Part shown: positions 35 to 16,450 of the stretch, piece after piece
How positions within the stretch are numbered: position 1 is the first letter of the stretch
Layout: the number at the start of each line of letters is the position of its first letter
Origin: a virus
Length of the DNA: 64,000 bases
Reading direction: 5' to 3' (one strand)
Virus record (IMG/VR): IMGVR_UViG_3300045988_175377
Notes under the pieces: model-generated
The model's input: only the letters and a program-made list of their open reading frames with translations
The model's database searches: none
What the model was told of the DNA's origin: nothing
Made by a program: the position numbers and the translations under genes

Positions 35-223
35 CTACCTTGTATTGCCAGTCGCGTTCTGCCTCGTGCAGTGTTGCGAATCCGTTTCCTCCAGTCGTTT
101 GCAATCCGTGTTCATCCAGACATAGGTGGGAGTATTCCCAGCCTTTAGGTCGGTAGAGTAGGTACCCGTCCCACATTCCGCACATTTCGTTTTTGGCCTG
201 ATATCTGAATTTCGGGGTTCCAC
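35..223 (-). CDS. hypothetical small protein (62 aa)
   Basis: ORF at the distal end of the minus-strand array; no recognisable domain. Confidence 0.2.
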   Translation of the reverse strand: MEPRNSDIRPKTKCAECGTGTYSTDLKAGNTPTYVWMNTDCKRLEETDSQHCTRQNATGNTR

Positions 224-250
224 TGCAACATGGGCAGGTGAGCAGATTCT

Positions 251-505
251 TCACGACTGTTCCTCTCTGGTTTCCAGCAGTTTGTCCAGTTTTTCTTCGA
301 TGCTTTCCAACCGCAGTCGCAACGCTTGCTGATTTTCGTAGATAGCCGCAACCTCGCCAGAAACCGCATAGCTTTTGTCGCCATACATGTCGTGCTTGTT
401 GTCGGCTTGTTTCTCAAGCTTCGCTATCTCCCGCTCCCGTTGCGACGGCTTGCGTGATTTCAGATAGTCCCTGCATTCGGGATTGAACATGTCCTCATAC
501 CCCAT
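251..505 (-). CDS. hypothetical coiled-coil protein (84 aa)
   Basis: Start codon abuts the stop of the upstream exonuclease gene (505/506); Glu/Lys/Leu-rich coiled-coil composition. Confidence 0.4.
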   Translation of the reverse strand: MGYEDMFNPECRDYLKSRKPSQREREIAKLEKQADNKHDMYGDKSYAVSGEVAAIYENQQALRLRLESIEEKLDKLLETREEQS

Positions 506-1090
506 TCAGCGTCCAAACTCCTCTCTACGCATAGCCTCATACAGCATGTTCTCCTGAGTCGCGTCAGACAAGGCACGATGCTCCTCCACGTCACCGATAC
601 CATAGTCGCGGATAAGCACGGCAACCTTATGGCTCGGCTTTTCGGGATGGATTTTCCGACTCATTTCCAACGTGTCCACGAACCGGTGCGGGAAGAAGAA
701 CATTCCACCGTTCACGGTTTTCATGGCCGCGTCCAAGAAACTCAAATCGAATGACGCGTTATGCGCCATGATGATGGTTCGCGGGCCAATCCACTTGTCG
801 AATCGGATGATGGCTTGGCTTACGTCGGGTTGTCCGACGACCATACTGTCGTTGATTCCGGTGAGCGAGGTGATGTATTCGGGGATTGGCTGGTGTGGGT
901 CAATCAGTTGCTCGTATCGGTCTACGAGTTTTCCGTCATGGATTTTCACGGCTCCGATTTCAATGAGTTTAGCCCCGTTTTCAGGTTTGAAACCGGTGGT
1001 TTCGGTATCCAAGACCACGTAATCGTAGAGTGGTGTTTTCATTGGGTCGATTCTTCTGGGGTCTCGACTTTGGTATTTGTCCCAGCTCAT
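506..1090 (-). CDS. DnaQ-like 3'-5' exonuclease (DEDDh, DNA pol III epsilon-like)
   Basis: Motifs VVLDTETTG (Exo I), HNASFDLSFLD (Exo II), HRALSDA (Exo III); preceded by motif copy 1. Confidence 0.7.
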   Translation of the reverse strand: MSWDKYQSRDPRRIDPMKTPLYDYVVLDTETTGFKPENGAKLIEIGAVKIHDGKLVDRYEQLIDPHQPIPEYITSLTGINDSMVVGQPDVSQAIIRFDKWIGPRTIIMAHNASFDLSFLDAAMKTVNGGMFFFPHRFVDTLEMSRKIHPEKPSHKVAVLIRDYGIGDVEEHRALSDATQENMLYEAMRREEFGR

Positions 1091-1111
1091 GGTGTGGTCT
1101 CCTCGGGTAAT

Positions 1112-1140
1112 TGAATGTGTGGACGTTTCTAGTATAACGC
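1112..1140 (-). promoter_or_regulatory. conserved promoter/leader motif, copy 1 (variant: TATACTAGAAACGTCCACACA)
   Basis: Gene-orientation read GTTATACTAGAAACGTCCACACATTC...GAGGAG..ATG upstream of the exonuclease gene; same variant as the copy at 37121. Confidence 0.5.
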
Positions 1141-1410
1141 CTATTTGGTGATGGCCTTGACACGCCCGTCCAGAACCGTTCTCACGACATCCTCGAAGTC
1201 CGTGCCGTCAGGCAATAGGTGGGAGTCTTGGAGGGTTCCGATAATCTTCAACAGTTCCGTATGCCCGTGCGGAGTGCGCTTATAGTCGCGGGTCGCACCC
1301 GCCTTGTATGCGCGACGCAACTGCAACGCCAACTGCTCCCGTGTGAGCGTGATGAAGTCTCCTTCCTCGATGGGATACCGTTCTTCCAGTTCTTCGTTGA
1401 GAATGCTCAT
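1141..1410 (-). CDS. hypothetical protein (~89 aa)
   Basis: ORF with internal Met start MSILNEELEERY preceded by an A-rich RBS region. Confidence 0.4.
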   Translation of the reverse strand: MSILNEELEERYPIEEGDFITLTREQLALQLRRAYKAGATRDYKRTPHGHTELLKIIGTLQDSHLLPDGTDFEDVVRTVLDGRVKAITK

Positions 1411-1435
1411 TTTTTTGTTTTTCCTTTCTGTTTTT

Positions 1436-1831
1436 TCAGACGTACATTCCCTCATGCCAGCCGTGTAGCAAACCCCATTCGGATAGTTTCCGGAACCATT
1501 TCTCGCATTCGTCAGCCACCTTGTTGGGATAATCCAACGTCGGGTTCACGTTGAGTAAATACTGGTAGTCGTAGGGTTGGCAGAAGTTCTCGTCCAACAC
1601 GTCAATCTGCCAGTCGCTACCGTCCTTGGCAATCTCGACATTCAATGTCATGTCATGGTCGGGGGAGACTGAACGGCAGAGGTACCAATACCCCTCACGG
1701 TGGTCGGTGAACCCCAGTCGGCGCATGGTCGAATCTTCGGCGGAACTCATGCTAAGCGCCGCATTGTTCTGATGCTTCGTGTAGGTGACGCCTATGGTCG
1801 AGAATCGAGGCGTGTTCTGATTGTCGGACAT
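1436..1831 (-). CDS. hypothetical protein (131 aa)
   Basis: ORF in the same-strand operon; no recognisable domain. Confidence 0.4.
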   Translation of the reverse strand: MSDNQNTPRFSTIGVTYTKHQNNAALSMSSAEDSTMRRLGFTDHREGYWYLCRSVSPDHDMTLNVEIAKDGSDWQIDVLDENFCQPYDYQYLLNVNPTLDYPNKVADECEKWFRKLSEWGLLHGWHEGMYV

Positions 1832-1839
1832 GTTCTCTC

Positions 1840-2211
1840 CTATTCTTCGCTTTCGCGCAAGTCGATTACCGGAATATGGGTATCGGCGGAATAGTGGACG
1901 GAATAAGGGTCGATTGTCCTATGCCGCCAACTGACACCACCTTCCACCGGCCAAGCCAACCAGCTTATGCCGTCCAAATAGTTCAGAATGCTGACGTGAG
2001 CAATCCAACGGCACCATCTTGCCGGGCATATCACGTCGAACATGGGAGTATCCTCGGTTCCCGGTCGGCAGGAATGCCGTTGCCAAGAACGAAGGCATAC
2101 GCGGTAGAGCGCATAGGAGTCATATGTTGGCAGTTCCTTGGTGTCGAATACCGCGCGAGTTGGGTGGTCATCGAAGAGGATTCGTTTGCCGAATTTAGTT
2201 GCTTGATTCAA
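1840..2211 (-). CDS. hypothetical protein (probable TTG start)
   Basis: ORF 1840..2403 begins inside motif copy 2; likely true start is a TTG after the AAAGGAGG RBS (~2211). Confidence 0.3.
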   Translation of the reverse strand: MNQATKFGKRILFDDHPTRAVFDTKELPTYDSYALYRVCLRSWQRHSCRPGTEDTPMFDVICPARWCRWIAHVSILNYLDGISWLAWPVEGGVSWRHRTIDPYSVHYSADTHIPVIDLRESEE

Positions 2212-2244
2212 TGCGTCCTCCTTTTTGGGTTTTGTCTTTGTTTT

Positions 2245-2272
2245 TGTTGTGAACAATCCCACTATAACACAA
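2245..2272 (-). promoter_or_regulatory. conserved promoter/leader motif, copy 2
   Basis: Gene-orientation TGtTATAGTGGGATTGTTCACAACAAAAAC followed by AAAGGAGG. Confidence 0.6.
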
Positions 2273-2299: not shown

Positions 2300-2755
2300 C
2301 TAAGCCAGCGTCCCGTTAAAAAAGAACTCCCTCTTCCCAACCCGATACAAACCCACACGAGAGACGGACAGACGAAAATCAAAACGACGGAAGAAACCCT
2401 CATACATCGGCAACAACTCTTCCGGCACTGTCACCAGAGGGAACCGTTCATCCAGCGATTTCAATGCATATTCGACCAGCGTGGAACCAACCCCTCGACT
2501 CCGAAAACCCTCGTAGACATACAAAGTGCAAATCTTCCGTTCAGACGGATTTCTCTTGAGAACGCAAAACCCCGCCAACTCACCGTCTATATAGGCTAAA
2601 AGAATCACACGGTCTTCCCCCAATGAGGGGAGAACCGTGCGGTCGAACCAAATATCGAAGCCGGGATAATACGTTCGGATTGTCCCCGGAATGGGAATAG
2701 AAGCCGCAGTGCCAGCGTCCCGAACTACACTAATCCTCAACGAACTCGAACACAT
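2300..2755 (-). CDS. GNAT family N-acetyltransferase
   Basis: GFCVLKRN...LYVYEGFRSRGVGSTLVEYAL matches the acetyl-CoA binding motif (R/Q-x-x-G-x-G/A) of GNAT enzymes. Confidence 0.65.
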   Translation of the reverse strand: MCSSSLRISVVRDAGTAASIPIPGTIRTYYPGFDIWFDRTVLPSLGEDRVILLAYIDGELAGFCVLKRNPSERKICTLYVYEGFRSRGVGSTLVEYALKSLDERFPLVTVPEELLPMYEGFFRRFDFRLSVSRVGLYRVGKREFFFNGTLA

Positions 2756-2975
2756 GAAAATCCGTCACACGCTCGACGTTGACATGACTCGTATCATCCG
2801 GCCAAATATATAAGACCGGCATGTAACCGGACAGTTCACGAACTGCGAGATTGCTGAAACCGTCCAAGTAGAGGGTTCCGGCCATGGGTTTGCCGTTCCA
2901 TTTGAATATCGCGGACTTGCCTTCGAATTCTTTCCAGTTGATTCCGTCTTGATAGGGAAGTTCTTTTAAGGCCAT
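2730..2975 (-). CDS. hypothetical protein (81 aa)
   Basis: ORF overlapping the GNAT start by 26 nt; operon member. Confidence 0.4.
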   Translation of the reverse strand: MALKELPYQDGINWKEFEGKSAIFKWNGKPMAGTLYLDGFSNLAVRELSGYMPVLYIWPDDTSHVNVERVTDFHVFEFVED

Positions 2976-3056: not shown

Positions 3057-3332
3057 TTAGAATTCCGGCTCCTCAACATTCAACAACACCAGTTTCGGAC
3101 GGCGGCGCAGAATCCTGCAATCCTCTGCCCACGCGTCCAAAATTTCGCAAGCCAATACGGGTGCTTCCGGAGCCAGAGTAGGCATGGTGTTCAGAATCGA
3201 CTGGACGGAGTCTAAGTCTGCGAAGGGAAGTTCCGTCGCATTATTGGCTGCATCCAAAAGATAGTGGGGCATTCGTGCTCCTTCCAAAAATTGAAAAGAA
3301 AAAGCCTGTGGGCAACGATTTTCCACAGGCAT
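3057..3332 (-). CDS. hypothetical protein (91 aa)
   Basis: ORF only. Confidence 0.35.
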   Translation of the reverse strand: MPVENRCPQAFSFQFLEGARMPHYLLDAANNATELPFADLDSVQSILNTMPTLAPEAPVLACEILDAWAEDCRILRRRPKLVLLNVEEPEF

Positions 3333-3600
3333 TCTTAGCTTATTATTCGATTTCGCGAGGCTTCAGAACTTTGTCTGAAACACCAGCGCAATCGCGCTCA
3401 ATAATAGACTTTTTTACCGACTTTTATTCGTCGCACAAGTCGGTGTTGCGTCTGCCATATTCGTTTCGTTTCTTGGCTTGCGGATTCCAAGCGCTACCTG
3501 CATCCCATTCGATGTGAGTGGAACGGTTTTCCCTGTGAGTGTTGTTCTTGTTGGCATTGCCGGTGTTAATCCAGTCGTGGTTGCTCATTTTTTTCTACTT

Positions 3601-3975
3601 TCAGTAGCAGTCATCGCACCAACCGGTGTCCCCGCACGGATTCTCGTTTTCGTCGGTTAGCAGACAACCGCAACCGCTGCAATACATGTTGTCCGGATTG
3701 TCGGACGAAGCGAAAGAACCTTCCCTGACAATGTTACCAGCCAAGTCGGTGATGGTGTAGATTGCCCGAGTGTCGGCTTCCGGTGCGGGATAGCCGGACA
3801 TGCCTAGAATCCTGTTGTACACGTTCGTCAGTAGAGTGCGAACGTTTCCCACCTGACGAGTCCCATTCAGAATGGGAGCCGTCAAATGGTCGAAGAATCC
3901 TACCGTCGTATCCCAAGAATGCTGACCTTCGTGGATTTCAATTTCCAGCTTTTCCTTGCCGTCCGTGAATCGCAT
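3601..3975 (-). CDS. hypothetical Cys-rich protein (124 aa)
   Basis: C-terminal CSGCGCLL...CGDTGWCDDCY cysteine cluster; start 10 nt after the upstream stop. Confidence 0.4.
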   Translation of the reverse strand: MRFTDGKEKLEIEIHEGQHSWDTTVGFFDHLTAPILNGTRQVGNVRTLLTNVYNRILGMSGYPAPEADTRAIYTITDLAGNIVREGSFASSDNPDNMYCSGCGCLLTDENENPCGDTGWCDDCY

Positions 3976-3985: not shown

Positions 3986-4348
3986 CTACAATTCCCTCAT
4001 GGCCTTGTCTAAATCGGACACAATCGCGTCATACAGTCCGTCAACATCCAACGATTCCAGCTTGTGCGACGGCAAATCCACGGGAGTGTATTCCCCGTCG
4101 TCGAAAGTCCAATGCTCGACCGAAACCGTGTATACTCCTCCACTCCAACGGTAGGAACGTCTGCCGTTATGTTGCGAGTCTGCCACAAGATAGTATTCGA
4201 ACATCTTGCCCATGTATGGGCATTGGAATGCGACTTCGATTCCGTCTCCGAAGATGGCGTGGGTGGCGTGTGCGCCGGTCACGTATGGGATTTTGACAAG
4301 CTTGTCAATGAGTTTCCGATAGGTGTCTTCGCTGATTTTCGAGTACAT
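3986..4348 (-). CDS. hypothetical protein (120 aa)
   Basis: ORF; operon member. Confidence 0.45.
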   Translation of the reverse strand: MYSKISEDTYRKLIDKLVKIPYVTGAHATHAIFGDGIEVAFQCPYMGKMFEYYLVADSQHNGRRSYRWSGGVYTVSVEHWTFDDGEYTPVDLPSHKLESLDVDGLYDAIVSDLDKAMREL

Positions 4349-4411
4349 TCTGATTGTCCTTTTTTCGTGTGGTCGGTTTTGTGTGGTTGGGGTTTTTGTG
4401 GCGATTGTTTT

Positions 4412-4672
4412 TCAGCAACAGTATTCGTTGACTGCGTTGACGAGTTCAGCCATGCTCATGCCGTACACGTCGCTGTGGTGGGCGTAGATGTCTTTTGCGA
4501 AGAGTCTGTTTTGCATGACGTCGCGGGCTTCGGCGCTTTGTGCGAGTTTTACGCTTTCGGGGAATGTGCCTGTGGGGTTGTCATTGATTTGTTTGGCGTA
4601 TTCGATGGCTTGGGCTTTGGGCATTTTCCTTACGTTCATTGCGCCGCCGATGTAGTGGATTGCGTACATGTT
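4412..4672 (-). CDS. hypothetical protein (~86 aa, start MYAIHYIGG)
   Basis: ORF 4412..4798 extends through motif copy 3 (N-terminal YSGIVHTK is a motif translation artefact); real start is the ATG after the AAAGGAGC RBS. Confidence 0.4.
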   Translation of the reverse strand, partial: NMYAIHYIGGAMNVRKMPKAQAIEYAKQINDNPTGTFPESVKLAQSAEARDVMQNRLFAKDIYAHHSDVYGMSMAELVNAVNEYCC

Positions 4673-4694: not shown

Positions 4695-4725
4695 CTCTTT
4701 GTGTGAACAATTCCACTATAGCACA
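4695..4725 (-). promoter_or_regulatory. conserved promoter/leader motif, copy 3
   Basis: TGcTATAGTGGAATTGTTCACACAAAGAG in gene orientation. Confidence 0.6.
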
Positions 4726-4801: not shown

Positions 4802-5767
4802 TCAATCGGACAAACCGGCACGGGCACGCATCTTGCGTTTAATCTCGCTACCCTTGGCAAACAAGCGCTCCATACGGGCCACGGTCTGCAACGCCTTCTT
4901 ATACTCCTCCAATCGAGAAGAGATTTGCCAATTACGAGGTTCCGCCAACGACTCCTCAATCAGAGAATCGGGAACATCCCACATAAAGGACATAATCCAA
5001 CGGCGGTTTTCCCCGCCCATGCGACGCCACAAGCGCACGGCACGCTTACCTTTGACCCATTCCGGATTATTAAACAAGACTTGGATGGCGGATTCGTCGG
5101 AGAGGGAGTCCAGCAATGGGTCTATGTCCGTTTCTTCCGCCAATGGTGCCGATAGGGCGCGAATGGTTTCGTCTTCGCTTTTTACCCAATGCTCGAAGCA
5201 GAGCCTATCGGCCAGCTTGTTTTCCACCATGTAGCGGATAACGTCGTAATCCGTCTCCTCCCAGTACATGCTTGCAACGGTATGCTTTGCGGCGAGCTTG
5301 CGTAGTTCGGGGTCTTTGTCCTTGGCGAGACCAATCGCGGTCTTATAGTTAAGCTTTCCCTTGTATTCCAAATAGTCGGCCACTTTGCGGCGAACGTCAC
5401 GACTCCGGTCTTTCAACACGGTTTCACGCAGTCCGTCGTATATTTTTCCGTCCTCGATTTTCATGTTGTACTTCAACTTGCAGTTGATGTAGTAGTGACG
5501 GAATGGTAGGGGGAGCAGAAATATTCTTCCACTCCGGTAGATGTTCTTGATGCTTTCCAGCAGGTCGATTCCCTTGTTGGTAAGCTTCCAACGGTCGTGT
5601 TCCTTGGTCAGTTCGATTAGGTTGGCTTCCTTGATTTTGTCTAAGGGCTTCTGGTCGATGTATGCGCTCAGTCGTTGCGAGTGGGTTTCGTTGTCGAAGT
5701 CCTCGAAGTAGTAGACGAGGTTGGCGTTCCACTTTTTGGTGAGAGTTTTGATTTCGTTGTTGTCCAT
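4802..5767 (-). CDS. hypothetical protein, paralog A (N-terminal winged-helix-like region plus HEAT/armadillo-like helical repeats)
   Basis: 321 aa; shares architecture and C-terminal RLEEY...FAKGSEIKRK block with the 6215..7156 product. Confidence 0.5.
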   Translation of the reverse strand: MDNNEIKTLTKKWNANLVYYFEDFDNETHSQRLSAYIDQKPLDKIKEANLIELTKEHDRWKLTNKGIDLLESIKNIYRSGRIFLLPLPFRHYYINCKLKYNMKIEDGKIYDGLRETVLKDRSRDVRRKVADYLEYKGKLNYKTAIGLAKDKDPELRKLAAKHTVASMYWEETDYDVIRYMVENKLADRLCFEHWVKSEDETIRALSAPLAEETDIDPLLDSLSDESAIQVLFNNPEWVKGKRAVRLWRRMGGENRRWIMSFMWDVPDSLIEESLAEPRNWQISSRLEEYKKALQTVARMERLFAKGSEIKRKMRARAGLSD

Positions 5768-5778: not shown

Positions 5779-5805
5779 TTCTGGTATATCTTGTGTGAAC
5801 AATTC
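5779..5805 (-). promoter_or_regulatory. conserved promoter/leader motif, copy 4
   Basis: TGaTATACTGGAATTGTTCACACAAGA. Confidence 0.6.
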
Positions 5806-5906
5806 CAGTATATCATATTTAAGAGAAAGCGCAAAAGCGCAAAAAACAAAAAGCCGTGCAAATACAAAAAGCATTCACATGACTCGGAAATTTTTCCCAC
5901 TATTAG

Positions 5907-6203
5907 TTAGTCAAAGTCCGACGGTTCACCATTGACGTAGTTTAAAAACTGGTCGAAGGCATATTGCGCGGTATCTTCATAACGGCATGGCTTCGGCTGT
6001 GCGTTCTTTTCCTGCTCTTTCTGCTCTATCAACTGGTCTATTTGGCTTTGCTCATTGCGGTGCTGCCATGAAAGTGGTTCGTTGCCTTGGGCTAGGTTCT
6101 CATACACCGTGTATTCGTGCCCGCGATAGCTGTAGACAAGATAGACCATATGTGCGTCGTATCCGTGCCCGTAGTATTTTCTGATAAATGTCGCTTTTCG
6201 CAT
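5907..6203 (-). CDS. hypothetical protein (~98 aa)
   Basis: Internal Met start MRKATFIRKYYGHGYD just downstream of the paralog B stop. Confidence 0.35.
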   Translation of the reverse strand: MRKATFIRKYYGHGYDAHMVYLVYSYRGHEYTVYENLAQGNEPLSWQHRNEQSQIDQLIEQKEQEKNAQPKPCRYEDTAQYAFDQFLNYVNGEPSDFD

Positions 6204-7157: not shown

Positions 7158-7185
7158 TTTTTGTGTGAACAATTCCAGTATACAA
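7158..7185 (-). promoter_or_regulatory. conserved promoter/leader motif, copy 5
   Basis: TTGTATACTGGAATTGTTCACACAAAAAT. Confidence 0.6.
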
Positions 7186-7480: not shown

Positions 7481-7499
7481 GAACGGCTTGCTGACCTTG

Positions 7500-9711: not shown

Positions 9712-9741
9712 AGTTTTTGTGTGAACAATCCCAGTATATAT
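9712..9741 (-). promoter_or_regulatory. conserved promoter/leader motif, copy 6
   Basis: ATATATACTGGGATTGTTCACACAAAAAC. Confidence 0.6.
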
Positions 9742-10150
9742 TCAAGAATAGCAATCACGCAAGTCGGCACGTCAAAACAAACTACCCAATCACACAAAAA
9801 CCAGCAAGCCTATCAATGCAATAATCGACAGATAGGCCAGAACCATAAGAGACAATCCAACCCGCAGACCCCATCCCCAAGCCAATACGCGAGAATCGTT
9901 CTCCCTACCGACCTCTTCCATTTTGCGGCTCCAAGCCTGAACCTTATCGGTCAACTCGTTCTGCGTGAGCCAATTGCCGTCACGGTCGAACGGGCTAGGC
10001 TGATACGGCAGGTAGAAGAATCCCCTCCATATCCAATGGTGGCAATGCCGGATACGGTGGAATATTATGCCGCCAGATTTGCGCGGAACGGCGCAACCCC
10101 ATACGGAACGCCGGATTACGCACCGTGTCCAATAAACCCATTTTCTACTC

Positions 10151-10561
10151 CTATCGAAAAGTTAACGGCTCTTCGCCTATCCTCACAAGCAACTCGTTCA
10201 GTTCAGGTATGAGAATATCCGTTCCAAGCGCTTCAACATCATGTTTGGTGAGGTAGAACACTTGCCCGTCCTTGTAACGCAACATGCCGTCAGTGTCGAA
10301 CGATAGGCTTTCGAACATGGTTTCGACCATATCCCAGAACAGGCTTCCGAACTGCTCTTTAGTCCGTTCGTCATGCAGAACCGTGTACACCGCGCGGGAA
10401 TACTGTTCACCGCGTTTCAAATCCTTGTTCAGGCAACGTTCGCAACGATGGCATCCGTCCAAGTCTTTCATGCAGTCGGAGCATAACGGTCGGGAGCATT
10501 CGGGGCAGAGGATAGTCCACTTGTTTGTTTTGCAGATTGCGCAGATTCCGTTGTTCAGCAC
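10151..10561 (-). CDS. hypothetical Cys-rich zinc-finger protein (136 aa, GTG start)
   Basis: CAICK...CPECSRPLCSDC...CHRCERC motif pairs; RBS AAGGAG 8 nt before GTG; degenerate motif-like promoter at 10575-10611 (TTAATCTGGAAGCAATCACACCCAC). Confidence 0.4.
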   Translation of the reverse strand: MLNNGICAICKTNKWTILCPECSRPLCSDCMKDLDGCHRCERCLNKDLKRGEQYSRAVYTVLHDERTKEQFGSLFWDMVETMFESLSFDTDGMLRYKDGQVFYLTKHDVEALGTDILIPELNELLVRIGEEPLTFR

Positions 10562-10611: not shown

Positions 10612-11334
10612 TCAGTCCAACGGTTTGCCGCGTCCGACAATCTTCTTACCGTCCGCGTTCCGCAACCATGCCAAGCCGTGACCATAGGAAACAACACCAG
10701 CTTTGACGGTCGGATTCTGCTGGAACGTGTAATAAACTTCCACCAGTCCGCCGCCACCGTTCGCTTGCAGAATACGAATCCTGTAATCCTTTTCCACGGC
10801 TTTGACGGCCATATCCCGTTCGAGTTCATCAAACCAACCGTAAAGTGGGAGCATGGCGAAAGCGGCTAATACTCCTACGGTGATGAACCGCCAATATGTT
10901 TTGGCCCCTACCAGTAGGGCGATTACCGCCACGAGAACGCCGATGATGGCGATTCCGGCCACGAGCTGGCGCCAATTGCCGTTGCAATCGTATTCGACGG
11001 GAGCATAGGGATTGGTGAGGGTCGGCGCGGATTTGACGGGTTTTGACTGTTTGTGTGGGATGGTCGGCCTGTAGGTCTTCGGCTCTTTCGTGGACACGGT
11101 TTCGGTCTTTGCTTTAGGTTCCGTCTTGACTGTAGGGTCGTTCTTCGGTTCGACGGGCTTAGGAACGTTCTTCTTTTCAGCTTCCACGGGCGGTGCCGGT
11201 GGTTTCAACATTTTCCGTTCCGTCTCTTTGACCACTCTTTGAAGTTCGATGGTGGTGGACGAGTCGGGTTCGTCCATCGGTTCCTGACCTAACATCATGA
11301 GGTCGTTTTCCAGCGAGACATCCCGTTCTTTCAT
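10612..11334 (-). CDS. membrane protein with Pro/Lys-rich linker
   Basis: PPAPPVEAEKKNVPKPVEPK repeats and two hydrophobic helices (LVAGIAIIGVLVAVIALLV; ITVGVLAAFAMLPLYGW). Confidence 0.45.
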   Translation of the reverse strand: MKERDVSLENDLMMLGQEPMDEPDSSTTIELQRVVKETERKMLKPPAPPVEAEKKNVPKPVEPKNDPTVKTEPKAKTETVSTKEPKTYRPTIPHKQSKPVKSAPTLTNPYAPVEYDCNGNWRQLVAGIAIIGVLVAVIALLVGAKTYWRFITVGVLAAFAMLPLYGWFDELERDMAVKAVEKDYRIRILQANGGGGLVEVYYTFQQNPTVKAGVVSYGHGLAWLRNADGKKIVGRGKPLD

Positions 11335-11419: not shown

Positions 11420-11716
11420 TCAGAGGATTCGGGTTCCCTTGCGGGTGACGAGCATGATTCTGTTTTCGTAGCGGTTCTCGAAAACGTCCCAGTTGCCGCT
11501 CAGGACAGCCAAGCACACATTGCCTTTGATGAGGTTCCAACGTTCGTCGCAGTTGGATACGACGTGCTTCCAGTTGATTGGATTGGGCTTGTGGTGGGAG
11601 GTTTCCACGATGGCTTCGGTCATAGGCCTGTCTGCGTAGGCGTGGTCGTAGGTGTTGTCACTCGCGACGATGCTGATGGTGCCGTTGTCGAATGCGATTG
11701 GCTGGATGGTGTTCAT
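11420..11716 (-). CDS. hypothetical protein (~98 aa)
   Basis: Start MNTIQPIAFD after motif copy 7. Confidence 0.4.
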   Translation of the reverse strand: MNTIQPIAFDNGTISIVASDNTYDHAYADRPMTEAIVETSHHKPNPINWKHVVSNCDERWNLIKGNVCLAVLSGNWDVFENRYENRIMLVTRKGTRIL

Positions 11717-11867: not shown

Positions 11868-12017
11868 TCAGAGCCTTCGGGGGGGGTCGAGGATGGTTCC
11901 CCCGTGTTCGTGGGTATACTGTTCGGCGCTCTCAAGCGAAGTTAAGAGTGTGAGCTGGTCTTCGTATTCGACTGGCCACACCTGCTGTGTCTGCTGGTAG
12001 GCGTGTTCTATATACAT
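11868..12017 (-). CDS. hypothetical small protein (~49 aa)
   Basis: ATG 20 nt after motif copy 8 (MYIEHAYQQTQQVWPVEYED...); below the ORF-track size cutoff. Confidence 0.2.
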   Translation of the reverse strand: MYIEHAYQQTQQVWPVEYEDQLTLLTSLESAEQYTHEHGGTILDPPRRL

Positions 12018-12142: not shown

Positions 12143-12481
12143 TCAGGGAATCAGCTGCCAAATCCGCCAGCCGACCAACCCCAACAGTACGAGCACCCCA
12201 ATCGCATACATCCACGTGCCCGCGTATCCGCCCGCGAGGAACGCGCTCATCCGACGTTTCCGTTGCTCCAGCAGTGCGTACCATTCGCTCTCGCAACGGT
12301 CGAACATGTCCGCGTCCATGCGGGTGCCTCCGTACATGTCGAGCCAATCGCGCACGGTCGGCATGGGACCCAACGGGTCACGCAGACGGGCGTGCGGTAT
12401 GAGGGCTATTTTCAACCCCTGCCACACGCCCTTGAGAAAGAACGCGGGTAGCCTGTCCCCGGTCATGACAGCTCCCCACAT
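12143..12481 (-). CDS. hypothetical C-terminally membrane-anchored protein
   Basis: C-terminal hydrophobic helix AGGYAGTWMYAIGVLVLLGLVGW. Confidence 0.35.
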   Translation of the reverse strand: MWGAVMTGDRLPAFFLKGVWQGLKIALIPHARLRDPLGPMPTVRDWLDMYGGTRMDADMFDRCESEWYALLEQRKRRMSAFLAGGYAGTWMYAIGVLVLLGLVGWRIWQLIP

Positions 12482-12547: not shown

Positions 12548-12805
12548 TTATCGTCGGCGTACTGCATGGTCAGCCGGTACAGGTCGGCGGGCAACATGAC
12601 CACACGGTTCACGTTCGGCATCGCGTTGCCTCCAGAACAGGTGGGCGAGCGAATCGGCGTCGATGTACCGGCGTCGTCCGATTTTGTAGGTGCGTATGCG
12701 ACCGGCCTTCAGCAGGTCGTACACGTGCTGGCGTGAGCAGGAGAGGTAGGCCATCGTGTCAGCTATAGTGAGGATGGCTGGCAGTTCCTTGGCTTTGGTT
12801 CTCAT
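12548..12805 (-). CDS. Xis/AlpA-type helix-turn-helix DNA-binding protein (excisionase family)
   Basis: LTIADTMAYLSCSRQHVYDLLKAGRIRTYKIGRRRYIDADSLAHL matches the HTH_17/MerR-like excisionase domain. Confidence 0.6.
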   Translation of the reverse strand: MRTKAKELPAILTIADTMAYLSCSRQHVYDLLKAGRIRTYKIGRRRYIDADSLAHLFWRQRDAEREPCGHVARRPVPADHAVRRR

Positions 12806-13238: not shown

Positions 13239-13269
13239 TGTTTTTGTGTGAACGATTCCAGTATACATG
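13239..13269 (-). promoter_or_regulatory. conserved promoter/leader motif, copy 9
   Basis: CATGTATACTGGAATCGTTCACACAAAAAC. Confidence 0.6.
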
Positions 13270-13327: not shown

Positions 13328-13543
13328 TCAAAGCGAACCATGTCCGCGTGTCCTCTCCAAGGCGAACTGATAGGCGACTTCATCCAGTTCCTTGGGTTCC
13401 AACCCGTCCAGCACGGCGAGTGCGAACCTCACACGCTCACGGTCATCGACCGGCAACCAGATGTCGTCGGCTCCCGCGACGACGTGAATGCCCATGCCGT
13501 CGTTGTCGCTGATGTAGTCGAATCCGGTGAACTTGACATTCAT
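13328..13543 (-). CDS. hypothetical protein (~71 aa)
   Basis: Start MNVKFTGFDY after motif copy 10 and an AAAAAAGGAGG RBS. Confidence 0.35.
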   Translation of the reverse strand: MNVKFTGFDYISDNDGMGIHVVAGADDIWLPVDDRERVRFALAVLDGLEPKELDEVAYQFALERTRGHGSL

Positions 13544-13605: not shown

Positions 13606-13637
13606 TGTTTTGTGTGAACAATTCCAGTATAGCGCAC
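13606..13637 (-). promoter_or_regulatory. conserved promoter/leader motif, copy 10
   Basis: GCTATACTGGAATTGTTCACACAAAAC. Confidence 0.6.
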
Positions 13638-13713: not shown

Positions 13714-13914
13714 CTAACGATTCATGCTCAAACGAACCTCAACCGCGACGGTCAGCAACACCACCGTAATGGCGCACACGGATACGATACCGAACGTGCG
13801 GCCAAACGTGAACAGCCAAGTGCCGAACGAGTAGATGCCGAACGCGACTGCGGTTGCCACCCCACCGAAAGCGATGGTGACAAGCGTCATAAGCAGAACA
13901 TCCTTGATATACAT
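13714..13914 (-). CDS. small two-TM membrane protein (66 aa)
   Basis: Two hydrophobic helices; start 16 nt after an AAAAGGAG RBS following motif copy 11. Confidence 0.4.
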   Translation of the reverse strand: MYIKDVLLMTLVTIAFGGVATAVAFGIYSFGTWLFTFGRTFGIVSVCAITVVLLTVAVEVRLSMNR

Positions 13915-13947: not shown

Positions 13948-13979
13948 CTTGTTTGTGTGAACAATTCCAGTATACATCA
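13948..13979 (-). promoter_or_regulatory. conserved promoter/leader motif, copy 11
   Basis: GATGTATACTGGAATTGTTCACACAAAC. Confidence 0.6.
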
Positions 13980-14047: not shown

Positions 14048-14425
14048 TCAGAACTCATACTCGCAATCGGAATCGAGATACCATTTGTCGCCGTAACCCC
14101 AAAGAACACGACGGATGGTCGCAGGGTCGTTTAGCTCAACGAACTTGGACGCCAGTTCATCCACCGACTTGGCGGAAAAAGCCTTGCCGACGGAAGCGTA
14201 GAATTCATCCCATTCCGCCTGTTCGGCGTCGGAATCGACCAGCTCACGGAACCGTCCGGCAAGCTTCTCGTCCGGCAGTGTCGCTTCCGCAGAATTCGTG
14301 TCCTCTATATCCAACCAAGCGCCGAAACACTTGTCGGCCAACGATTTAACCGGAATGGTGAGGATGCTGGAATACGTGCCCTTCCAAGCGTTCTTCTTGA
14401 AGAAGCTAACGTCTCGTGCCTTCAT
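14048..14425 (-). CDS. acidic ArdA-like (antirestriction-like) protein, paralog 2
   Basis: MKARDVSFFKKNAWKG...CFGAWLDIEDTN...GDKWYLDSDCEYEF; paralog of 12823..13212. Confidence 0.35.
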   Translation of the reverse strand: MKARDVSFFKKNAWKGTYSSILTIPVKSLADKCFGAWLDIEDTNSAEATLPDEKLAGRFRELVDSDAEQAEWDEFYASVGKAFSAKSVDELASKFVELNDPATIRRVLWGYGDKWYLDSDCEYEF

Positions 14426-14439: not shown

Positions 14440-14934
14440 CTATTCTTCCTCGCCGTCCGCCTGACGGAGCGGAACGATACGGTTCCACTGTTCCTCATAC
14501 TCGTCCTCCGCGTCCTTGGAACCATTGTCCAGCAGTTTGTTCAACGTGGCTCGTCCTACGTCGCTGAGACGACTGATGCTGCGGAGAATGCTCGCCACGT
14601 CGTCGGCTTCGTATAGTTTATTGCGATTGTCCGACAGTTCTTGATACTTCGAGTCGGTGAGGTTCCAAACATAGTCTTCCAGCAGTTTCCAGTCTTCTTT
14701 TTCGGCAGAGGGTACTGGAATCGGCTTGGTGAGCCGCCAATCTTCGAGAATGTCCACCCAAAGGTCGGTCTTGACGTTGTATTCGCCAAGGTCTTCCTCG
14801 TGGGTGAGTTTTTCGATTCGTTGTTCTTCGCCGTTCTCGTCCAAGTAGTCTATTGTGAGATATTCACTATCCACTGACAAGGTGGAGAGTTCGCGTAGCT
14901 TGGTGATTTTGAGGTTGGTGATTGTGTTAATCAT
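14440..14934 (-). CDS. hypothetical acidic protein (~164 aa)
   Basis: Start MINTITNLKI after motif copy 12; no recognisable domain. Confidence 0.4.
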   Translation of the reverse strand: MINTITNLKITKLRELSTLSVDSEYLTIDYLDENGEEQRIEKLTHEEDLGEYNVKTDLWVDILEDWRLTKPIPVPSAEKEDWKLLEDYVWNLTDSKYQELSDNRNKLYEADDVASILRSISRLSDVGRATLNKLLDNGSKDAEDEYEEQWNRIVPLRQADGEEE

Positions 14935-14958: not shown

Positions 14959-14990
14959 ATCTTTTGTGTGAACAATCCCAGTATACCATG
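14959..14990 (-). promoter_or_regulatory. conserved promoter/leader motif, copy 12
   Basis: CATGGTATACTGGGATTGTTCACACAAAAG. Confidence 0.6.
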
Positions 14991-15046
14991 TTTGTTGGGA
15001 AAACAAAAACAGCCCACTCCCCAAAACAAGGAAGCGGGCTGAAAAG

Positions 15047-15871
15047 TCAGGCATTCAGCAAAGCATGGGACGAAACACCCATTTCAGACAAACCCAAACC
15101 CACATTGTTCGCGTCACTCACACCACGAGCAAAACCATCCTTGCTACCACGAGCAGTGGCCGCACGACCCGGCACCAGCTCAAGCTTGTCAAAATACTCG
15201 TTCAGACGCTGACTCTTGCATGACACCAGCTCACGACCGGAAGGAATGGCGAGACTCTGCTTGCGAAGCTCCTCGAAACGTTCGCTCAAACGTTCGTTGA
15301 ATCCACCGCGATAACCATAATAGAACTTGGCGCGTGGATAATCACGACGCATGTACTGTTTGCATTCCGTCAGCGTCGGATAGGATTCACGTCCGTAATG
15401 CGTTTCGACGTATTCCTTGTTGTCCTCATAGTACGCTTTGGCGTGCTGGTCAATCATGTCCGCGTAGCTAGTGCGGGCGTGGACTGAGCAGTACAGGTCG
15501 ATGCTTTGGAAGAGAAGGACTGCGGCGTTCACATCGTCCTCCTCGCCTACGAACATGACGGCACGTTCCTTAATCCTTCCGCCACACCGGCTTTCGTGAA
15601 TGTAGGCGCGGCATTCGTTAGCTTGGGCGATGATGGTCGCAAGGTAGCCTTGCTGATGGTAGATGGTGGTTTTGCTTACGTTCACGCCACGTTCGATGAT
15701 TGGCTTGTTCGTGCGGGTGCGGTCGCGTTTCCAGTCTTCGATACGATATTCGTTGATGAGTTTCTGTGCCCGCTCGAACGCCATTTGCGCCTCATTGTCG
15801 CTGGAAGCTTCGTTTTCGGCTATTGCCATGAGGTTGTTGATGCGTTCGATGATGCTGTCGATGTTGCTCAT
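15047..15871 (-). CDS. DUF2786-like protein (plasmid/phage-associated)
   Basis: N-terminus SIIERINNLMAIAENEASSDNEAQMAFERAQKLINEY matches the DUF2786 signature (KIRKLLALAE...EAEAALLKAQELM pattern, from memory). Confidence 0.5.
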   Translation of the reverse strand: MSNIDSIIERINNLMAIAENEASSDNEAQMAFERAQKLINEYRIEDWKRDRTRTNKPIIERGVNVSKTTIYHQQGYLATIIAQANECRAYIHESRCGGRIKERAVMFVGEEDDVNAAVLLFQSIDLYCSVHARTSYADMIDQHAKAYYEDNKEYVETHYGRESYPTLTECKQYMRRDYPRAKFYYGYRGGFNERLSERFEELRKQSLAIPSGRELVSCKSQRLNEYFDKLELVPGRAATARGSKDGFARGVSDANNVGLGLSEMGVSSHALLNA

Positions 15872-15894
15872 TTCTTGCTCCTTGGTTTTTCTTT

Positions 15895-15925
15895 TATCTT
15901 TTGTGTGAACAATCCCAGTATACAG
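15895..15925 (-). promoter_or_regulatory. conserved promoter/leader motif, copy 13
   Basis: GCTGTATACTGGGATTGTTCACACAAAAG. Confidence 0.6.
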
Positions 15926-16024
15926 CGTGCGAAAAAACGACACACCCAAAAAACTATAAACAACCTCCGAAAAAACAAACCCCTCCAACCTATAAGGGAA
16001 GGAAGAGTACTGTTACAGAATCGC

Positions 16025-16339
16025 TCAGGCGTCCAAGTGGGAATGATGCAGAAGCCTACGAACATTGATATTGTGGACAAACCTATCCTGACCGACAATC
16101 CTCGAAGCAAACTCCCTATCGGTATATCCACCGTCGGAAACACCGTCCAAAACAGTCTCGGGAATATTGTCCAACATGTAATAGCTGACGCCGGTCTGAC
16201 TCTCGACATGCTCGAAAAGCATGTAGTAGACGCCCTCGGGGTCGTCTGTGAAACGACTCATGACATACGACTTGTCCTTGACTACGAAGATGTTGTAGTC
16301 CTCTGCGCCGAACTGCTTGAAGTATGCAGGCTTATTCAT
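16025..16339 (-). CDS. hypothetical protein (104 aa)
   Basis: Start MNKPAYFKQF after motif copy 14 and an AAGGAGAAAAAA RBS. Confidence 0.4.
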   Translation of the reverse strand: MNKPAYFKQFGAEDYNIFVVKDKSYVMSRFTDDPEGVYYMLFEHVESQTGVSYYMLDNIPETVLDGVSDGGYTDREFASRIVGQDRFVHNINVRRLLHHSHLDA

Positions 16340-16361
16340 TTTTTTCTCCTTGGTTTTTCAA

Positions 16362-16393
16362 CTTTTTTTATGTGAACGATTCCAGTATACTCC
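16362..16393 (-). promoter_or_regulatory. conserved promoter/leader motif, copy 14 (first/outermost of the array)
   Basis: GAGTATACTGGAATCGTTCACATAAAAAAAG. Confidence 0.6.
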
Positions 16394-16410
16394 AAGCGTG
16401 GAAACAATAC

Positions 16411-16450
16411 AAAAAAAGAGGGACGGAGACCAAAACGGAAACCGTCCCTC
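16411..16450 (-). terminator. rho-independent terminator (minus strand) insulating the array from rightward read-through
   Basis: Minus strand reads GAGGGACGG-N15-CCGTCCCTC followed by TTTTTTT; perfect 9-bp GC stem. Confidence 0.6.

What the first reader, a model, noticed from the sequence alone, without database searches (positions are those of the whole stretch)
35..16450. Unidirectional ~30-gene array resembling a conjugative-plasmid leading / anti-defence region
All genes from 35 to 16339 are on one strand, are short, and are mostly of unknown function. They are driven by the repeated promoter element and bounded on the outer side by a strong terminator (16411-16450). Recognisable members are a standalone DnaQ-like DEDDh exonuclease, a GNAT acetyltransferase, a DUF2786-like protein, an Xis/AlpA HTH protein, two acidic ArdA-like paralogs, two HEAT-like paralogs, Cys-rich zinc-finger proteins and small membrane proteins. 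This composition and architecture match what is described for plasmid leading regions rich in anti-restriction and anti-defence genes, so the unknown members are candidate novel anti-defence proteins. No relaxase or oriT is identifiable in the window, so the leading-region assignment is by analogy.
Basis: inference. Interest (0 to 1): 0.7.

Follow-up and report, generated by a model that had tools for sequence, protein, structure and literature searches.

The report
Shared-promoter gene array, Bifidobacterium megaplasmid
About 30 small, mostly unknown genes, switched on in groups by one repeated promoter, form half of a ~28-kb accessory block on a ~220-kb Bifidobacterium adolescentis megaplasmid that is common in human guts; a role in plasmid establishment or evading host defences is plausible, but neither that role nor a first-to-enter position is shown.

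Summary
The array is real. About 31 minus-strand ORFs lie between 251 and 16339. They have AGGAG ribosome sites and a coding-type substitution pattern. Thirteen copies of a 23-nt promoter element drive them, 11 of them near-perfect, and seven of the eight copies tested follow an intrinsic terminator.

The array runs about 11 kb past the left end of the window, for roughly 28 kb and 55 genes. A plus-strand TnpB insertion (about 7503-9126) splits one gene.

The replicon is a ~220-kb Bifidobacterium adolescentis megaplasmid. It is collinear with the conjugative plasmid pMP7017 at about 50% amino-acid identity, and IMG/VR files it as viral. The promoter element is the diverged counterpart of the published pMP7017 "regulon" motif.

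The exonuclease, GNAT, HTH_17, DUF2786/DUF7168 and HEAT-like calls hold. "ArdA-like" does not. No in-window gene matches a known anti-defence family, but ArdC sits at 4349-4411 in 9 of 17 variants.

No relaxase or oriT is known for this plasmid family, so leading-region status cannot be tested. The array does point toward FtsK-like coupling-protein genes about 10 kb downstream. In pMP7017 the motif is dispersed, on both strands, active in steady state, and also drives CRISPR-Cas.

Verdict: a plasmid-specific regulon of variable cassettes, with an anti-defence role plausible but unproven.

The parts
1..254 (-). 5' part of a 189-aa ORF that runs off the left end of the window. The array continues about 11 kb beyond it.
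   Evidence: Metagenome gene calls L007 10837-11406; walk in IMG/VR contigs.
251..505 (-). ORF, 84 aa, no family match; start overlaps the stop of the exonuclease gene
506..1090 (-). DnaQ-like DEDDh 3'-5' exonuclease, 194 aa. The DxE, NxxFD and HxxxxD motifs are visible in the sequence. 56% identical to the pMP7017 exonuclease.
   Evidence: Pfam RNase_T 1e-32; PHROG 192; NCBIfam; PADLOC DEDDh
1141..1410 (-). ORF, 89 aa, no family match
1436..1831 (-). ORF, 131 aa, no family match; 57% identical to a hypothetical protein of B. longum megaplasmids
1840..2043 (-). ORF, 67 aa, no family match
   Evidence: gene call L007 9048-9251
2244..2266 (-). weak copy of the promoter element (4 mismatches)
2300..2755 (-). 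GNAT acetyltransferase, 151 aa
   Evidence: Pfam Acetyltransf_1 8.7e-9; PHROG 13728
2730..2975 (-). ORF, 81 aa; 42% identical to a pMP7017 protein in its DUF2786 array
3057..3272 (-). ORF, 71 aa, acidic (pI 4.3)
3424..3588 (-). ORF, 54 aa; coding signal weak
3601..3975 (-). ORF, 124 aa, acidic, Cys-rich C-terminus
3986..4348 (-). ORF, 120 aa, no family match
4349..4411 (-). Intergenic junction. A 284-aa ArdC homolog (ArdcN + Peptidase_M78) is inserted here in 9 of 17 sampled variants. It is empty in this window.
4412..4669 (-). ORF, 85 aa, no family match
4698..4720 (-). promoter element copy (1 mismatch), preceded by a terminator hairpin at about 4745-4790
4802..5767 (-). winged-helix + HEAT-like repeat protein, 321 aa; paralog of 6215-7135 (31% identity)
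5790..5812 (-). promoter element copy (1 mismatch), with an upstream terminator
5907..6203 (-). ORF, 98 aa, no family match
6215..7135 (-). winged-helix + HEAT/ARM-like solenoid protein, 306 aa. The pMP7017 homolog (79231-80163) is also preceded by the family motif.
   Evidence: AF2 pLDDT 88; Foldseek alphaRep/YibA/ARM
7160..7182 (-). promoter element copy (perfect), with an upstream terminator at about 7205-7253
7262..7502 (-). 3' remnant (Zn-ribbon end) of a 137-aa gene split by the IS insertion
7503..9126 (+). IS200/IS605-family element carrying only TnpB (ORF 7561-9015). It is a secondary insertion, absent from variant L088, and 88% nt identical to a B. longum plasmid copy.
9106..9300 (-). 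5' part of the split 137-aa gene. It now reads as a 64-aa ORF ending in IS-derived codons.
9312..9689 (-). ORF, 125 aa, basic
9716..9738 (-). promoter element copy (1 mismatch)
9995..10141 (-). ORF, 48 aa; doubtful, with no third-position excess
10151..10561 (-). ORF, 136 aa, Cys-rich N-terminus (9 Cys)
10612..11334 (-). ORF, 240 aa, Pro/Lys-rich with a hydrophobic segment (putative membrane protein)
11420..11716 (-). ORF, 98 aa
11752..11774 (-). weak copy of the promoter element (5 mismatches)
11868..12017 (-). ORF, 49 aa
12041..12063 (-). promoter element copy, with an upstream terminator at 12111-12138
12143..12481 (-). ORF, 112 aa, C-terminal hydrophobic segment; 37% identical to the pMP7017 protein next to Lar
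12548..12805 (-). HTH_17 / excisionase-family DNA-binding protein, 85 aa
   Evidence: Pfam 2e-11; TIGR01764
12823..13212 (-). acidic 129-aa protein; paralog of 14048-14425 (54% identity); uncharacterised family, not ArdA
13243..13265 (-). promoter element copy (perfect to the degenerate consensus), with a TTGACG -35 box at 16 nt
13328..13543 (-). ORF, 71 aa, acidic
13609..13631 (-). promoter element copy (perfect), with an upstream terminator at 13678-13700
13714..13914 (-). ORF, 66 aa, two hydrophobic segments (small membrane protein). Replaced by a different cassette in variant L082.
13952..13974 (-). promoter element copy (perfect), with an upstream terminator
14048..14425 (-). acidic 125-aa protein, uncharacterised family (46 representative clusters in 1.84 billion); not ArdA
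14440..14934 (-). ORF, 164 aa, very acidic (net charge -20, pI 4.35)
14963..14985 (-). promoter element copy, with an upstream terminator at 15010-15041
15047..15871 (-). DUF2786 + DUF7168 protein, 274 aa. 31% identical to the pMP7017 DUF2786 protein, which is also preceded by the family motif.
15900..15922 (-). promoter element copy
16025..16339 (-). first ORF of the array, 104 aa
16367..16389 (-). outermost promoter element copy
16411..16450 (-). intrinsic terminator (9-bp GC-rich stem + U7) upstream of the first promoter
   Evidence: -20.9 kcal/mol, z -3.75

Best explanation
WHAT IT IS
The array is the promoter-dense half of a one-strand block of roughly 28 kb and 55 genes. It lies on a ~220-kb Bifidobacterium adolescentis megaplasmid of the pMP7017 (conjugative) family.

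HOW IT IS BUILT
It is made of insulated transcription units. Each unit has four elements in order:
1. An intrinsic terminator.
2. A family-specific promoter. Its TATACT -10 box is followed at once by the invariant GGAATTGTTCACACAAA, which must cover the transcription start and contains a small TGT-N2-ACA dyad.
3. An AGGAG ribosome site.
4. One to five small ORFs.

HOW IT MOST LIKELY WORKS (inferred)
- The host RNA polymerase uses the -10 box.
- A plasmid-encoded factor that has co-diverged with the motif reads the invariant 17 nt. This makes the array, and a few sites elsewhere on the plasmid, one plasmid-specific regulon.
- The contents are a gene-by-gene mosaic of mostly orphan proteins around a few conserved nucleic-acid enzymes: the DEDDh exonuclease and, just outside the window, an RNA ligase and a DUF3310 protein. 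ArdC is a presence/absence cassette.
- The most likely role is plasmid establishment and conflict with host defences and other mobile elements, for at least part of the gene set.

OPEN
Whether this is the first DNA to enter a recipient is unknown.
For: REPLICON
- The exact window proteins occur on 217-229-kb contigs in more than 1000 assembly blocks.
- The same proteins are in NCBI B. adolescentis records.
- DnaB is 54% identical to that of pMP7017.
- Window 36-61 kb is collinear with pMP7017 60->35 kb.

ARCHITECTURE
- 13 motif copies against 0 expected.
- Terminators lie upstream of 7 of the 8 copies tested.
- Ribosome sites are present.
- The substitution pattern is that of coding sequence.

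REGULON HOMOLOGY
- The motif aligns without gaps to the published pMP7017 34-bp motif.
- In pMP7017 the motif precedes the orthologs of the DUF2786, HEAT-like and exonuclease genes, the RNA-ligase array and ssb.
- The two motif versions differ at fixed positions, as expected if a specific reader co-evolves with them.

VARIABILITY
- 48 promoter-to-promoter unit types occur in the sampled relatives.
- Breakpoints run at about 15 per kb in intergenic DNA against 3.4 per kb in coding DNA.
- ArdC is present in 9 of 17 variants.

CONTEXT
- The block is transcribed toward an AAA_10 ATPase and two FtsK/SpoIIIE-like genes about 10 kb downstream.
- A type-IV-secretion-like cluster lies 26 kb upstream.
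Against: - No function has been tested, and 27 of 31 in-window ORFs match no family.
- No regulator has been identified. The invariant 17 nt could instead be a conserved mRNA leader or part of an unusual promoter.
- In pMP7017 the motif was found at genes highly expressed in log phase in an established plasmid. It also drives CRISPR-Cas, a sortase and a methyltransferase. A dedicated early or anti-defence programme is therefore not implied.
- Motif-bearing spacers are no richer in breakpoints than other spacers.
Confidence: 0.6

Rival explanations
1. True leading region. oriT lies to the left of the window, near the FtsK-like coupling-protein genes. The plus strand is transferred 5'-first. The array is then among the first DNA in the recipient, and its main job is early anti-defence expression.
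For: - Orientation is uniform and points toward the putative transfer module about 10 kb downstream. This is the orientation expected if the transferred strand is the template (my reasoning from the F/ColIb model).
- ArdC is polymorphic inside the array.
- In pMP7017 ssb, an adenine methyltransferase and the array that holds Lar lie downstream of the same motif.
- Leading regions are described as one-strand and rich in anti-defence genes (PMC11541004).
Against: - No relaxase or oriT is known or recognisable in this family. No oriT-like repeat lies upstream of the FtsK-like gene.
- No inverted repeat with arms of 18 nt or more occurs in the array, so nothing resembles the hairpins expected of a leading-region ssDNA promoter.
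- In pMP7017 the motif sites lie on both strands all around the plasmid and are active in steady state.
- No in-window gene is a known anti-defence gene.
Confidence: 0.25
2. Cargo for defence or inter-element competition rather than counter-defence. The cassettes act in the resident host against phages or rival plasmids, or modulate the host.
For: - The motif regulon of pMP7017 includes type I-E CRISPR-Cas and was described as enriched in defence functions, with steady-state expression.
- The neighbouring genes include a reverse transcriptase with DRT-like matches and an IetA-like ATPase.
- The DEDDh exonuclease matches PADLOC models.
- A GmrSD_C nuclease lies at 58544-59569.
Against: - Apart from the exonuclease's DEDDh/PDC-S48 matches, neither of the two array proteins scanned matched a PADLOC defence model. 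The other array ORFs were not scanned against PADLOC.
- Most ORFs are under 150 aa with no enzymatic domain.
- ArdC is a counter-defence gene.
Confidence: 0.1
3. Early or host-takeover region of a jumbo phage or phage-plasmid.
For: - IMG/VR holds the element as viral contigs of up to 217 kb.
- Several genes match phage families: PHROG 192, 421, 5931 and 1229, an RNA ligase of the PHA02142 type, and DUF3310.
- The terminator-promoter-small-ORF layout resembles phage early regions.
Against: - No capsid, terminase, portal or tail match was found in the large window ORFs that were scanned. The left extension received only Pfam annotation.
- The pMP7017 annotation has no capsid, terminase or portal gene.
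- Plasmid features are present: ParA, RepA_C, a DnaB cluster, a sortase-pilus locus and a type-IV-secretion-like cluster collinear with an experimentally conjugative plasmid.
Confidence: 0.05

Closest known systems
The 34-bp promoter-overlapping motif and 'pMP7017-specific regulon' of the B. breve/B. longum conjugative megaplasmid pMP7017 (Dineen et al. 2024, PMC10832533)
   Same: - The motif is homologous and of the same length: TATACT -10 followed by ...GT(C/T)CACA(T/C)AAA.
- It lies within about 60 nt of start codons.
- It precedes orthologous genes (DUF2786, HEAT-like, exonuclease, RNA-ligase array).
- The backbone is collinear.
   Different: - The host is different (B. adolescentis) and backbone proteins are only about 50% identical, with no nucleotide similarity.
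- The motif sequence has shifted: GGAATTGTTCACAC here against GAATATGTCCACAT in pMP7017.
- Here the copies are packed into one same-strand block (13 in 16 kb). In pMP7017 about 24 copies are spread over 190 kb on both strands.
- Most of the genes driven are unrelated between the two plasmids.
Leading-region anti-defence islands of conjugative plasmids (Samuel et al. 2024, PMC11541004)
   Same: - One-strand arrangement of many small genes.
- High turnover between variants.
- A known anti-restriction gene (ArdC) is present in some variants.
- The block is close to transfer genes.
   Different: - oriT and the relaxase are unknown, so the defining position cannot be shown.
- The promoters are double-stranded -10-type promoters with terminators, and no ssDNA-promoter hairpins were found.
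- ssb, psiB, ardA and methyltransferase genes are absent from this array.
ArdC of IncW plasmids (an ssDNA-binding N-domain plus an M78-type metalloprotease that overcomes recipient restriction; from my own knowledge of the family)
   Same: The variant cassette at the 4349-4411 junction has both the ArdcN and the Peptidase_M78 domains.
   Different: It is not present in this window, it belongs to an actinobacterial plasmid, and its function is untested.
Promoter-early stem-loop (PeSL) cassettes in hyperplastic regions of T4-type phages, and phage 'morons' (recalled from the literature, not checked here)
   Same: Repeated terminator-plus-promoter modules flank small novel ORFs, and variants differ cassette by cassette.
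   Different: The element is a plasmid, not a phage. Breakpoints are enriched in all intergenic spacers, not specifically at the repeated promoter, so repeat-mediated shuffling is not shown.

Membership tests
Conjugative-plasmid leading region | Lies next to oriT on the side transferred first | not testable with these tools
   No relaxase or oriT is known or recognisable for the pMP7017 family. No oriT-like repeats lie near the FtsK-like genes.
Conjugative-plasmid leading region | Genes uniformly oriented on one strand | tested here: met
   About 31 of 32 genes in the window are on the minus strand. The only exception is a secondary TnpB insertion. The off-window continuation has the same orientation.
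Conjugative-plasmid leading region | Enriched in known anti-defence, SSB, methyltransferase or SOS-inhibitor genes | tested here: inconclusive
   None occur in the window by Pfam, NCBIfam or PHROGs. ArdC is present in 9 of 17 variants. Lar, methyltransferases and ssb are associated with the motif in pMP7017.
Conjugative-plasmid leading region | Single-strand (Frpo/ssi-type) promoters formed by long hairpins | tested here: not met
   No inverted repeat with arms of 18 nt or more within 150 nt occurs in 1-16600, although imperfect hairpins could be missed. The units have ordinary -10 promoters and terminators.
pMP7017-family motif regulon | Conserved motif overlapping the -10 box, within about 60 nt of start codons | tested here: met
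   13 copies, aligning without gaps to the published consensus.
pMP7017-family motif regulon | Replicon homologous to pMP7017 (replication, partition and type-IV-secretion backbone) | tested here: met
   DnaB, ParA-like genes, the T4SS-like cluster, RepA_C, and the AAA_10 and FtsK-like genes are 34-66% identical and collinear.
pMP7017-family motif regulon | Orthologous genes sit behind the motif in both plasmids | tested here: met
   The DUF2786 and HEAT-like genes carry the motif directly in both plasmids. In pMP7017 the exonuclease and RNA-ligase genes also sit behind a copy. Here the nearest copies upstream of them are a weak one about 1.2 kb from the exonuclease and a 4-mismatch one about 2.4 kb from the RNA ligase.
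ArdA (for 12823-13212 and 14048-14425) | Sequence match to the ArdA family or to the solved ArdA structure | tested here: not met
   There is no Pfam or NCBIfam hit. None of 27 family members, down to 24% identity, matches ArdA or any other Pfam family. Profile searches of PDB sequences give only chance-level hits. The AF2 model is too poor for a fold test (pLDDT 42).
ArdC (variant cassette at the 4349-4411 junction) | N-terminal ArdcN domain plus C-terminal M78-type metalloprotease domain | tested here: met
   Precomputed Pfam gives PF08401 + PF06114 on the 284-aa product, and the M78 domain was re-found. The cassette is absent from the window itself.
Tailed phage / jumbo phage | Capsid, portal, terminase and tail genes | tested here: not met
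   The large window ORFs scanned give no structural PHROG or Pfam hit. The 30-kb left extension had Pfam annotation only, with none. The remaining ~120 kb was not seen.
IS200/IS605 TnpB element (7503-9126) | OrfB_IS605 and Cas12f1-like TNB domains; presence/absence polymorphism | tested here: met
PeSL-type shuffling cassettes | Recombination breakpoints concentrated at the repeated promoter/terminator module | tested here: not met
   A naive test looks positive. Against the proper baseline, motif-bearing spacers (14.6 per kb) equal motif-less spacers (15.1 per kb).

The most novel reading that the evidence does not exclude
The block is a phage-like 'early programme' carried by a conjugative megaplasmid. 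A plasmid-encoded factor reads the invariant 23-nt promoter. On entry into a new B. adolescentis cell it fires dozens of insulated cassettes drawn from a pool of at least 50 unit types and about 100 orphan protein families. Many of these would be new inhibitors of restriction-modification or other Bifidobacterium defences. If so, one of the commonest large plasmids of the adult human gut would be a major untapped source of anti-defence proteins, and a Gram-positive alternative to ssDNA-promoter leading regions.
Probability: 0.25. Interest if true: 0.7.

Novelty: new variant of a known kind. Interest (0 to 1): 0.45.

Why it matters
- **Tractability.** Bifidobacteria are hard to manipulate genetically, largely because of their restriction systems. 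This plasmid appears in more than a thousand gut assemblies, and its array polymorphically carries ArdC among dozens of orphan cassettes. That makes it a concrete place to look for proteins that disarm those systems.
- **A testable switch.** The shared 23-nt promoter offers one experimentally tractable control point for the whole set.
- **Scope of the pMP7017 regulon.** The published regulon is conserved, with a co-diverged motif, in a separate plasmid lineage of another Bifidobacterium species.
- **Database error.** IMG/VR lists this plasmid lineage as viral.

Tried and rejected
- **Nucleotide searches.** The array against phage and plasmid collections returned only the TnpB element. The T4SS half returned nothing.
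- **Host from GTDB representative genomes.** The motif search gave only chance single hits. The host was later obtained from exact-protein look-up.
- **ArdA test for the acidic paralogs.** The homolog search found only near-identical relatives. PDB profile searches were negative. AF2 gave pLDDT 42, so no fold search was run. The exhaustive profile search found a small orphan family with no Pfam match.
- **Motif-mediated cassette shuffling.** It looked significant against a uniform null but disappeared against an intergenic null, so it was dropped.
- **oriT near the FtsK-like genes.** No convincing repeats were found.
- **Relaxase.** None is annotated in pMP7017. Its RepA and the window homolog are RepA_C-type, not HUH-type. 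The 2015 discovery paper is not held.
- **The two 886-aa ATPases against PDB sequences.** No hits.
- **Pan-repertoire Pfam scan.** Among 51 novel cassette ORF families it found only the ArdC protease domain and one Ig-like domain.
- **Rfam and tRNA scans.** Nothing in the window.
- **Fold search of the HEAT-like protein.** It returned only generic solenoids and gave no functional lead.
- **Literature.** DUF2786 has no functional literature in the held library. No paper on a B. adolescentis megaplasmid was found.

Full report

Yes, in its main points.

- Between 251 and 16339 the minus strand carries about 31 ORFs of 48-321 aa. Most have an AGGAG-type ribosome site 5-10 nt before an ATG.
- Independent gene calls on metagenome contigs that hold identical proteins give the same genes.
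- Across related sequences, variable sites fall 717/565/1380 at codon positions 1/2/3 of these frames. The ORFs are therefore translated and under purifying selection. Only the 48-aa ORF at 9995-10141 looks doubtful.
- The long plus-strand ORFs that overlap them, such as 4064-5155, have no family match. They are antisense artefacts.

**2. Corrections to the observation**

- *Strand exception.* One gene is on the other strand: TnpB at 7561-9015 (OrfB_IS605 + Cas12f1-like TNB). It is 88% nt identical to a copy on a B. longum plasmid. Variant L088 joins window 7502 directly to 9127 and there encodes an intact 137-aa protein. The IS is therefore a recent insertion that split a gene of the array.
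- *Left boundary.* Coordinate 35 is not a boundary. A 189-aa gene starts near 254 and leaves the window. The same-strand run continues for about 11 kb and includes an RNA ligase (PF09414) and a DUF3310 protein. The whole block is about 28 kb and about 55 genes.

**3. The repeated promoter element**

- TATACTGGAATTGTTCACACAAA has 13 matches at 3 or fewer mismatches in the window, where none is expected. Eleven are in the array, all on the minus strand. Two weaker copies are at 2266 and 11774.
- Each copy lies 15-60 nt upstream of a ribosome site.
- Upstream of seven of the eight copies tested is a stable hairpin followed by a U-run.
It is one of a series.
- The unit is therefore terminator, then promoter, then ribosome site, then one to five ORFs. 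A -35 box is recognisable at only a few copies.
- The invariant 17 nt after the -10 box must span the transcription start. It contains a short TGT-N2-ACA dyad, read directly from the sequence.

**4. What replicon is this?**

- The exact DUF2786 and exonuclease proteins occur in 1110 and 1506 blocks of the assembly index. Many of the contigs are 217-229 kb and come from adult human gut metagenomes.
- The same sequences are in NCBI records named Bifidobacterium adolescentis. Relatives at about 64% identity are named B. pseudocatenulatum and B. catenulatum and lie on ~180-194-kb contigs.
- DnaB is 54% identical to that of pMP7017, the 190-kb conjugative megaplasmid of B. breve.
- A local tblastn shows window 36-61 kb collinear with pMP7017 60->35 kb. 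The shared stretch includes the type-IV-secretion-like cluster (42973-53486), ParA, a RepA_C gene (55436-56305) and a GmrSD_C/DUF1524 gene.
- The window also carries a sortase-pilus locus and a 1796-aa surface protein.
- There is no nucleotide-level similarity to any PLSDB plasmid apart from the IS.
- IMG/VR holds the element as viral contigs. However, no structural phage family was found among the large window ORFs scanned. The left extension, which had Pfam annotation only, shows none either. The pMP7017 annotation has no capsid, portal or terminase gene.
- I found no paper on a B. adolescentis megaplasmid in the held library.

**5. The motif is already known in the sister lineage**

Dineen et al. 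(PMC10832533) described a 34-bp motif in pMP7017:

- The motif is AWAYATGY-TATACT-GAATATGTCCACATAAAAWA and overlaps the -10 box.
- It was first seen at six highly expressed genes. It was then found at 19 sites predicted to drive 56 genes.
- It is absent from bifidobacterial chromosomes. The authors interpreted it as a transcription-factor site.

The window motif aligns to it base for base, with fixed differences (GGAATTGTTCACAC against GAATATGTCCACAT).

In pMP7017 I find 24 copies at 5 or fewer mismatches. They precede:

- the DUF2786 gene;
- the HEAT-like gene;
- the exonuclease;
- the RNA-ligase array, which also holds Lar;
- ssb;
- the tRNA/tmRNA block.

The published regulon table also lists type I-E cas genes, a sortase and an adenine methyltransferase.

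Two conclusions follow. Regulon membership of orthologous genes is conserved while the motif has co-diverged, which is best explained by a plasmid-encoded reader (inference). The regulon is also functionally mixed, lies on both strands in pMP7017, and is active in an established plasmid.

**6. Gene content**

Confirmed assignments:

| Coordinates | Assignment |
|---|---|
| 506-1090 | DEDDh exonuclease, catalytic motifs intact |
| 2300-2755 | GNAT acetyltransferase |
| 12548-12805 | HTH_17 / excisionase-type DNA-binding protein |
| 15047-15871 | DUF2786 + DUF7168 (PHROG 421, function unknown) |
| 3601-3975, 10151-10561 | Cys-rich proteins |
| 10612-11334, 12143-12481, 13714-13914 | proteins with hydrophobic segments |

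- *HEAT-like paralogs* (4802-5767 and 6215-7135, 31% identical). The model is confident (pLDDT 88) and shows an N-terminal winged helix plus an alpha-solenoid. Its nearest structural neighbours are generic HEAT/ARM proteins.
- *Acidic paralogs* (12823-13212 and 14048-14425, 54% identical). These are not ArdA by any test available. They form a small uncharacterised family of 46 representative clusters.
- *Charge.* About a third of the products are acidic (pI < 5), which is not diagnostic on its own.

**7. Variability**

- Related loci contain 404 motif copies and 295 promoter-to-promoter units, which fall into 48 types. About ten of these occur in the window.
- Of 51 additional ORF families, only an ArdC fragment and one Ig-like domain have Pfam matches.
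- Alignment breakpoints are about four to five times denser in intergenic spacers than in coding DNA. They are not denser in spacers that carry the motif.
- The mosaic is therefore gene-by-gene, and a special recombinogenic role for the promoter repeat is not supported.
- The one clearly interpretable polymorphism is a 284-aa ArdC homolog (ArdcN + M78 protease). It sits between 4412-4669 and 3986-4348 in 9 of 17 variants and is absent here.

**8. Is it a leading region?**

The defining feature is position next to oriT on the entering side. This cannot be tested. The two pMP7017 papers read never mention a relaxase or oriT, none is annotated, and MOB-suite calls the plasmid non-mobilizable.

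Walking left in a 217-kb IMG/VR contig gives the following order after the end of the array:

1. Two LRV/HEAT-repeat proteins.
2. An 886-aa AAA_10 (VirB4/TraC-type) ATPase, 66% identical to its pMP7017 counterpart.
3. A 256-aa protein.
4. A 778-aa protein homologous to the pMP7017 protein annotated 'phage tail tip lysozyme'.
5. Three genes on the opposite strand.
6. Two FtsK/SpoIIIE-like proteins, 53-59% identical to those of pMP7017.

The array is thus transcribed toward a probable DNA-transfer module about 10 kb away. That orientation fits the F/ColIb model, in which the transferred strand is the template (my reasoning).

Against the idea:

- no oriT-like repeat lies upstream of the FtsK-like gene;
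- the array contains no long hairpins;
- the promoters are of the double-stranded type;
- the pMP7017 copies of the motif are dispersed and bidirectional.

**9. Conclusion**

The finding is a real and well-organised feature. It is a new lineage-specific version of the pMP7017-type regulon, concentrated into one long same-strand block of insulated cassettes.

A role in establishment and counter-defence is plausible for part of it. The evidence is ArdC here, and Lar, methyltransferases and ssb behind the same motif in pMP7017. The role is not shown, and the leading-region label remains an analogy.

I rate the structural and regulatory description at 0.6. I rate the strict leading-region reading at 0.25, a defence/competition cargo reading at 0.1, and a phage reading at 0.05.

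Noticed in passing
window 7262-9300: The TnpB-only IS200/IS605 element (about 7503-9126, plus strand) has split a 137-aa Zn-ribbon gene that is intact in variant L088. The element is 88% nt identical to one on B. longum plasmid NZ_CP143940, which suggests recent exchange between Bifidobacterium megaplasmids.
   Followed up: yes
window 16564-21004: A divergent AAA_16 ATPase (52% identical to a pMP7017 protein that also sits beside a motif copy) lies next to two unknown genes and a 409-aa reverse transcriptase. The reverse transcriptase gives only generic RT and DRT-like PADLOC matches. This may be an unclassified RT-based defence module. The RT start varies between contigs (328 or 409 aa).
   Followed up: partly
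window 38886-39842: An AAA ATPase matches PADLOC IetA models strongly (1e-62). No obvious IetS protease gene lies beside it.
   Followed up: no
window 21975-31104: A sortase-dependent pilus/adhesin locus: a 1796-aa RCC1/SdrD-repeat surface protein, a class C-type sortase, a SpaA-type pilin and a DUF6273 protein. In contig L006 the large surface-protein and DUF6273 genes are replaced by an IS1595 transposase, RelB and an N6_N4 methyltransferase.
   Followed up: no
window 55436-56305: A RepA_C-family gene is 34% identical to pMP7017 repA. That gene is dispensable for pMP7017 replication, yet it is highly conserved and sits beside the FtsK-like genes there. Here it has moved next to ParA. Its real role is unexplained.
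   Followed up: partly
window 59800-64000: A second, plus-strand run of small genes starts here, with degenerate motif copies at 59824 and 60293. It is collinear with the start of the pMP7017 DUF2786/methyltransferase array. A GmrSD_C/DUF1524 nuclease gene (58544-59569) precedes it, and another TnpB (62676-63800) lies within it.
   Followed up: partly
IMG/VR loci L014-L154: IMG/VR lists this plasmid lineage as uncultivated viral genomes of up to 217 kb. This looks like a misclassification, because no virion genes were seen.
   Followed up: partly
proteins P0256, P0260: Relatives of the HEAT-like protein at about 64% identity are named B. pseudocatenulatum and B. catenulatum and lie on ~180-194-kb contigs. 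The megaplasmid family seems to span several adult-gut Bifidobacterium species.
   Followed up: no
L141 3468-5920 (left of the window): Two LRV/HEAT-repeat proteins of about 400 aa close the array just before the AAA_10 ATPase. Together with the two in-window HEAT-like paralogs, solenoid proteins are recurrent in this block.
   Followed up: no
window 37127-37149: A lone plus-strand motif copy (3-4 mismatches) lies upstream of the small-gene run that leads to the IetA-like ATPase. The regulon therefore extends outside the array.
   Followed up: no
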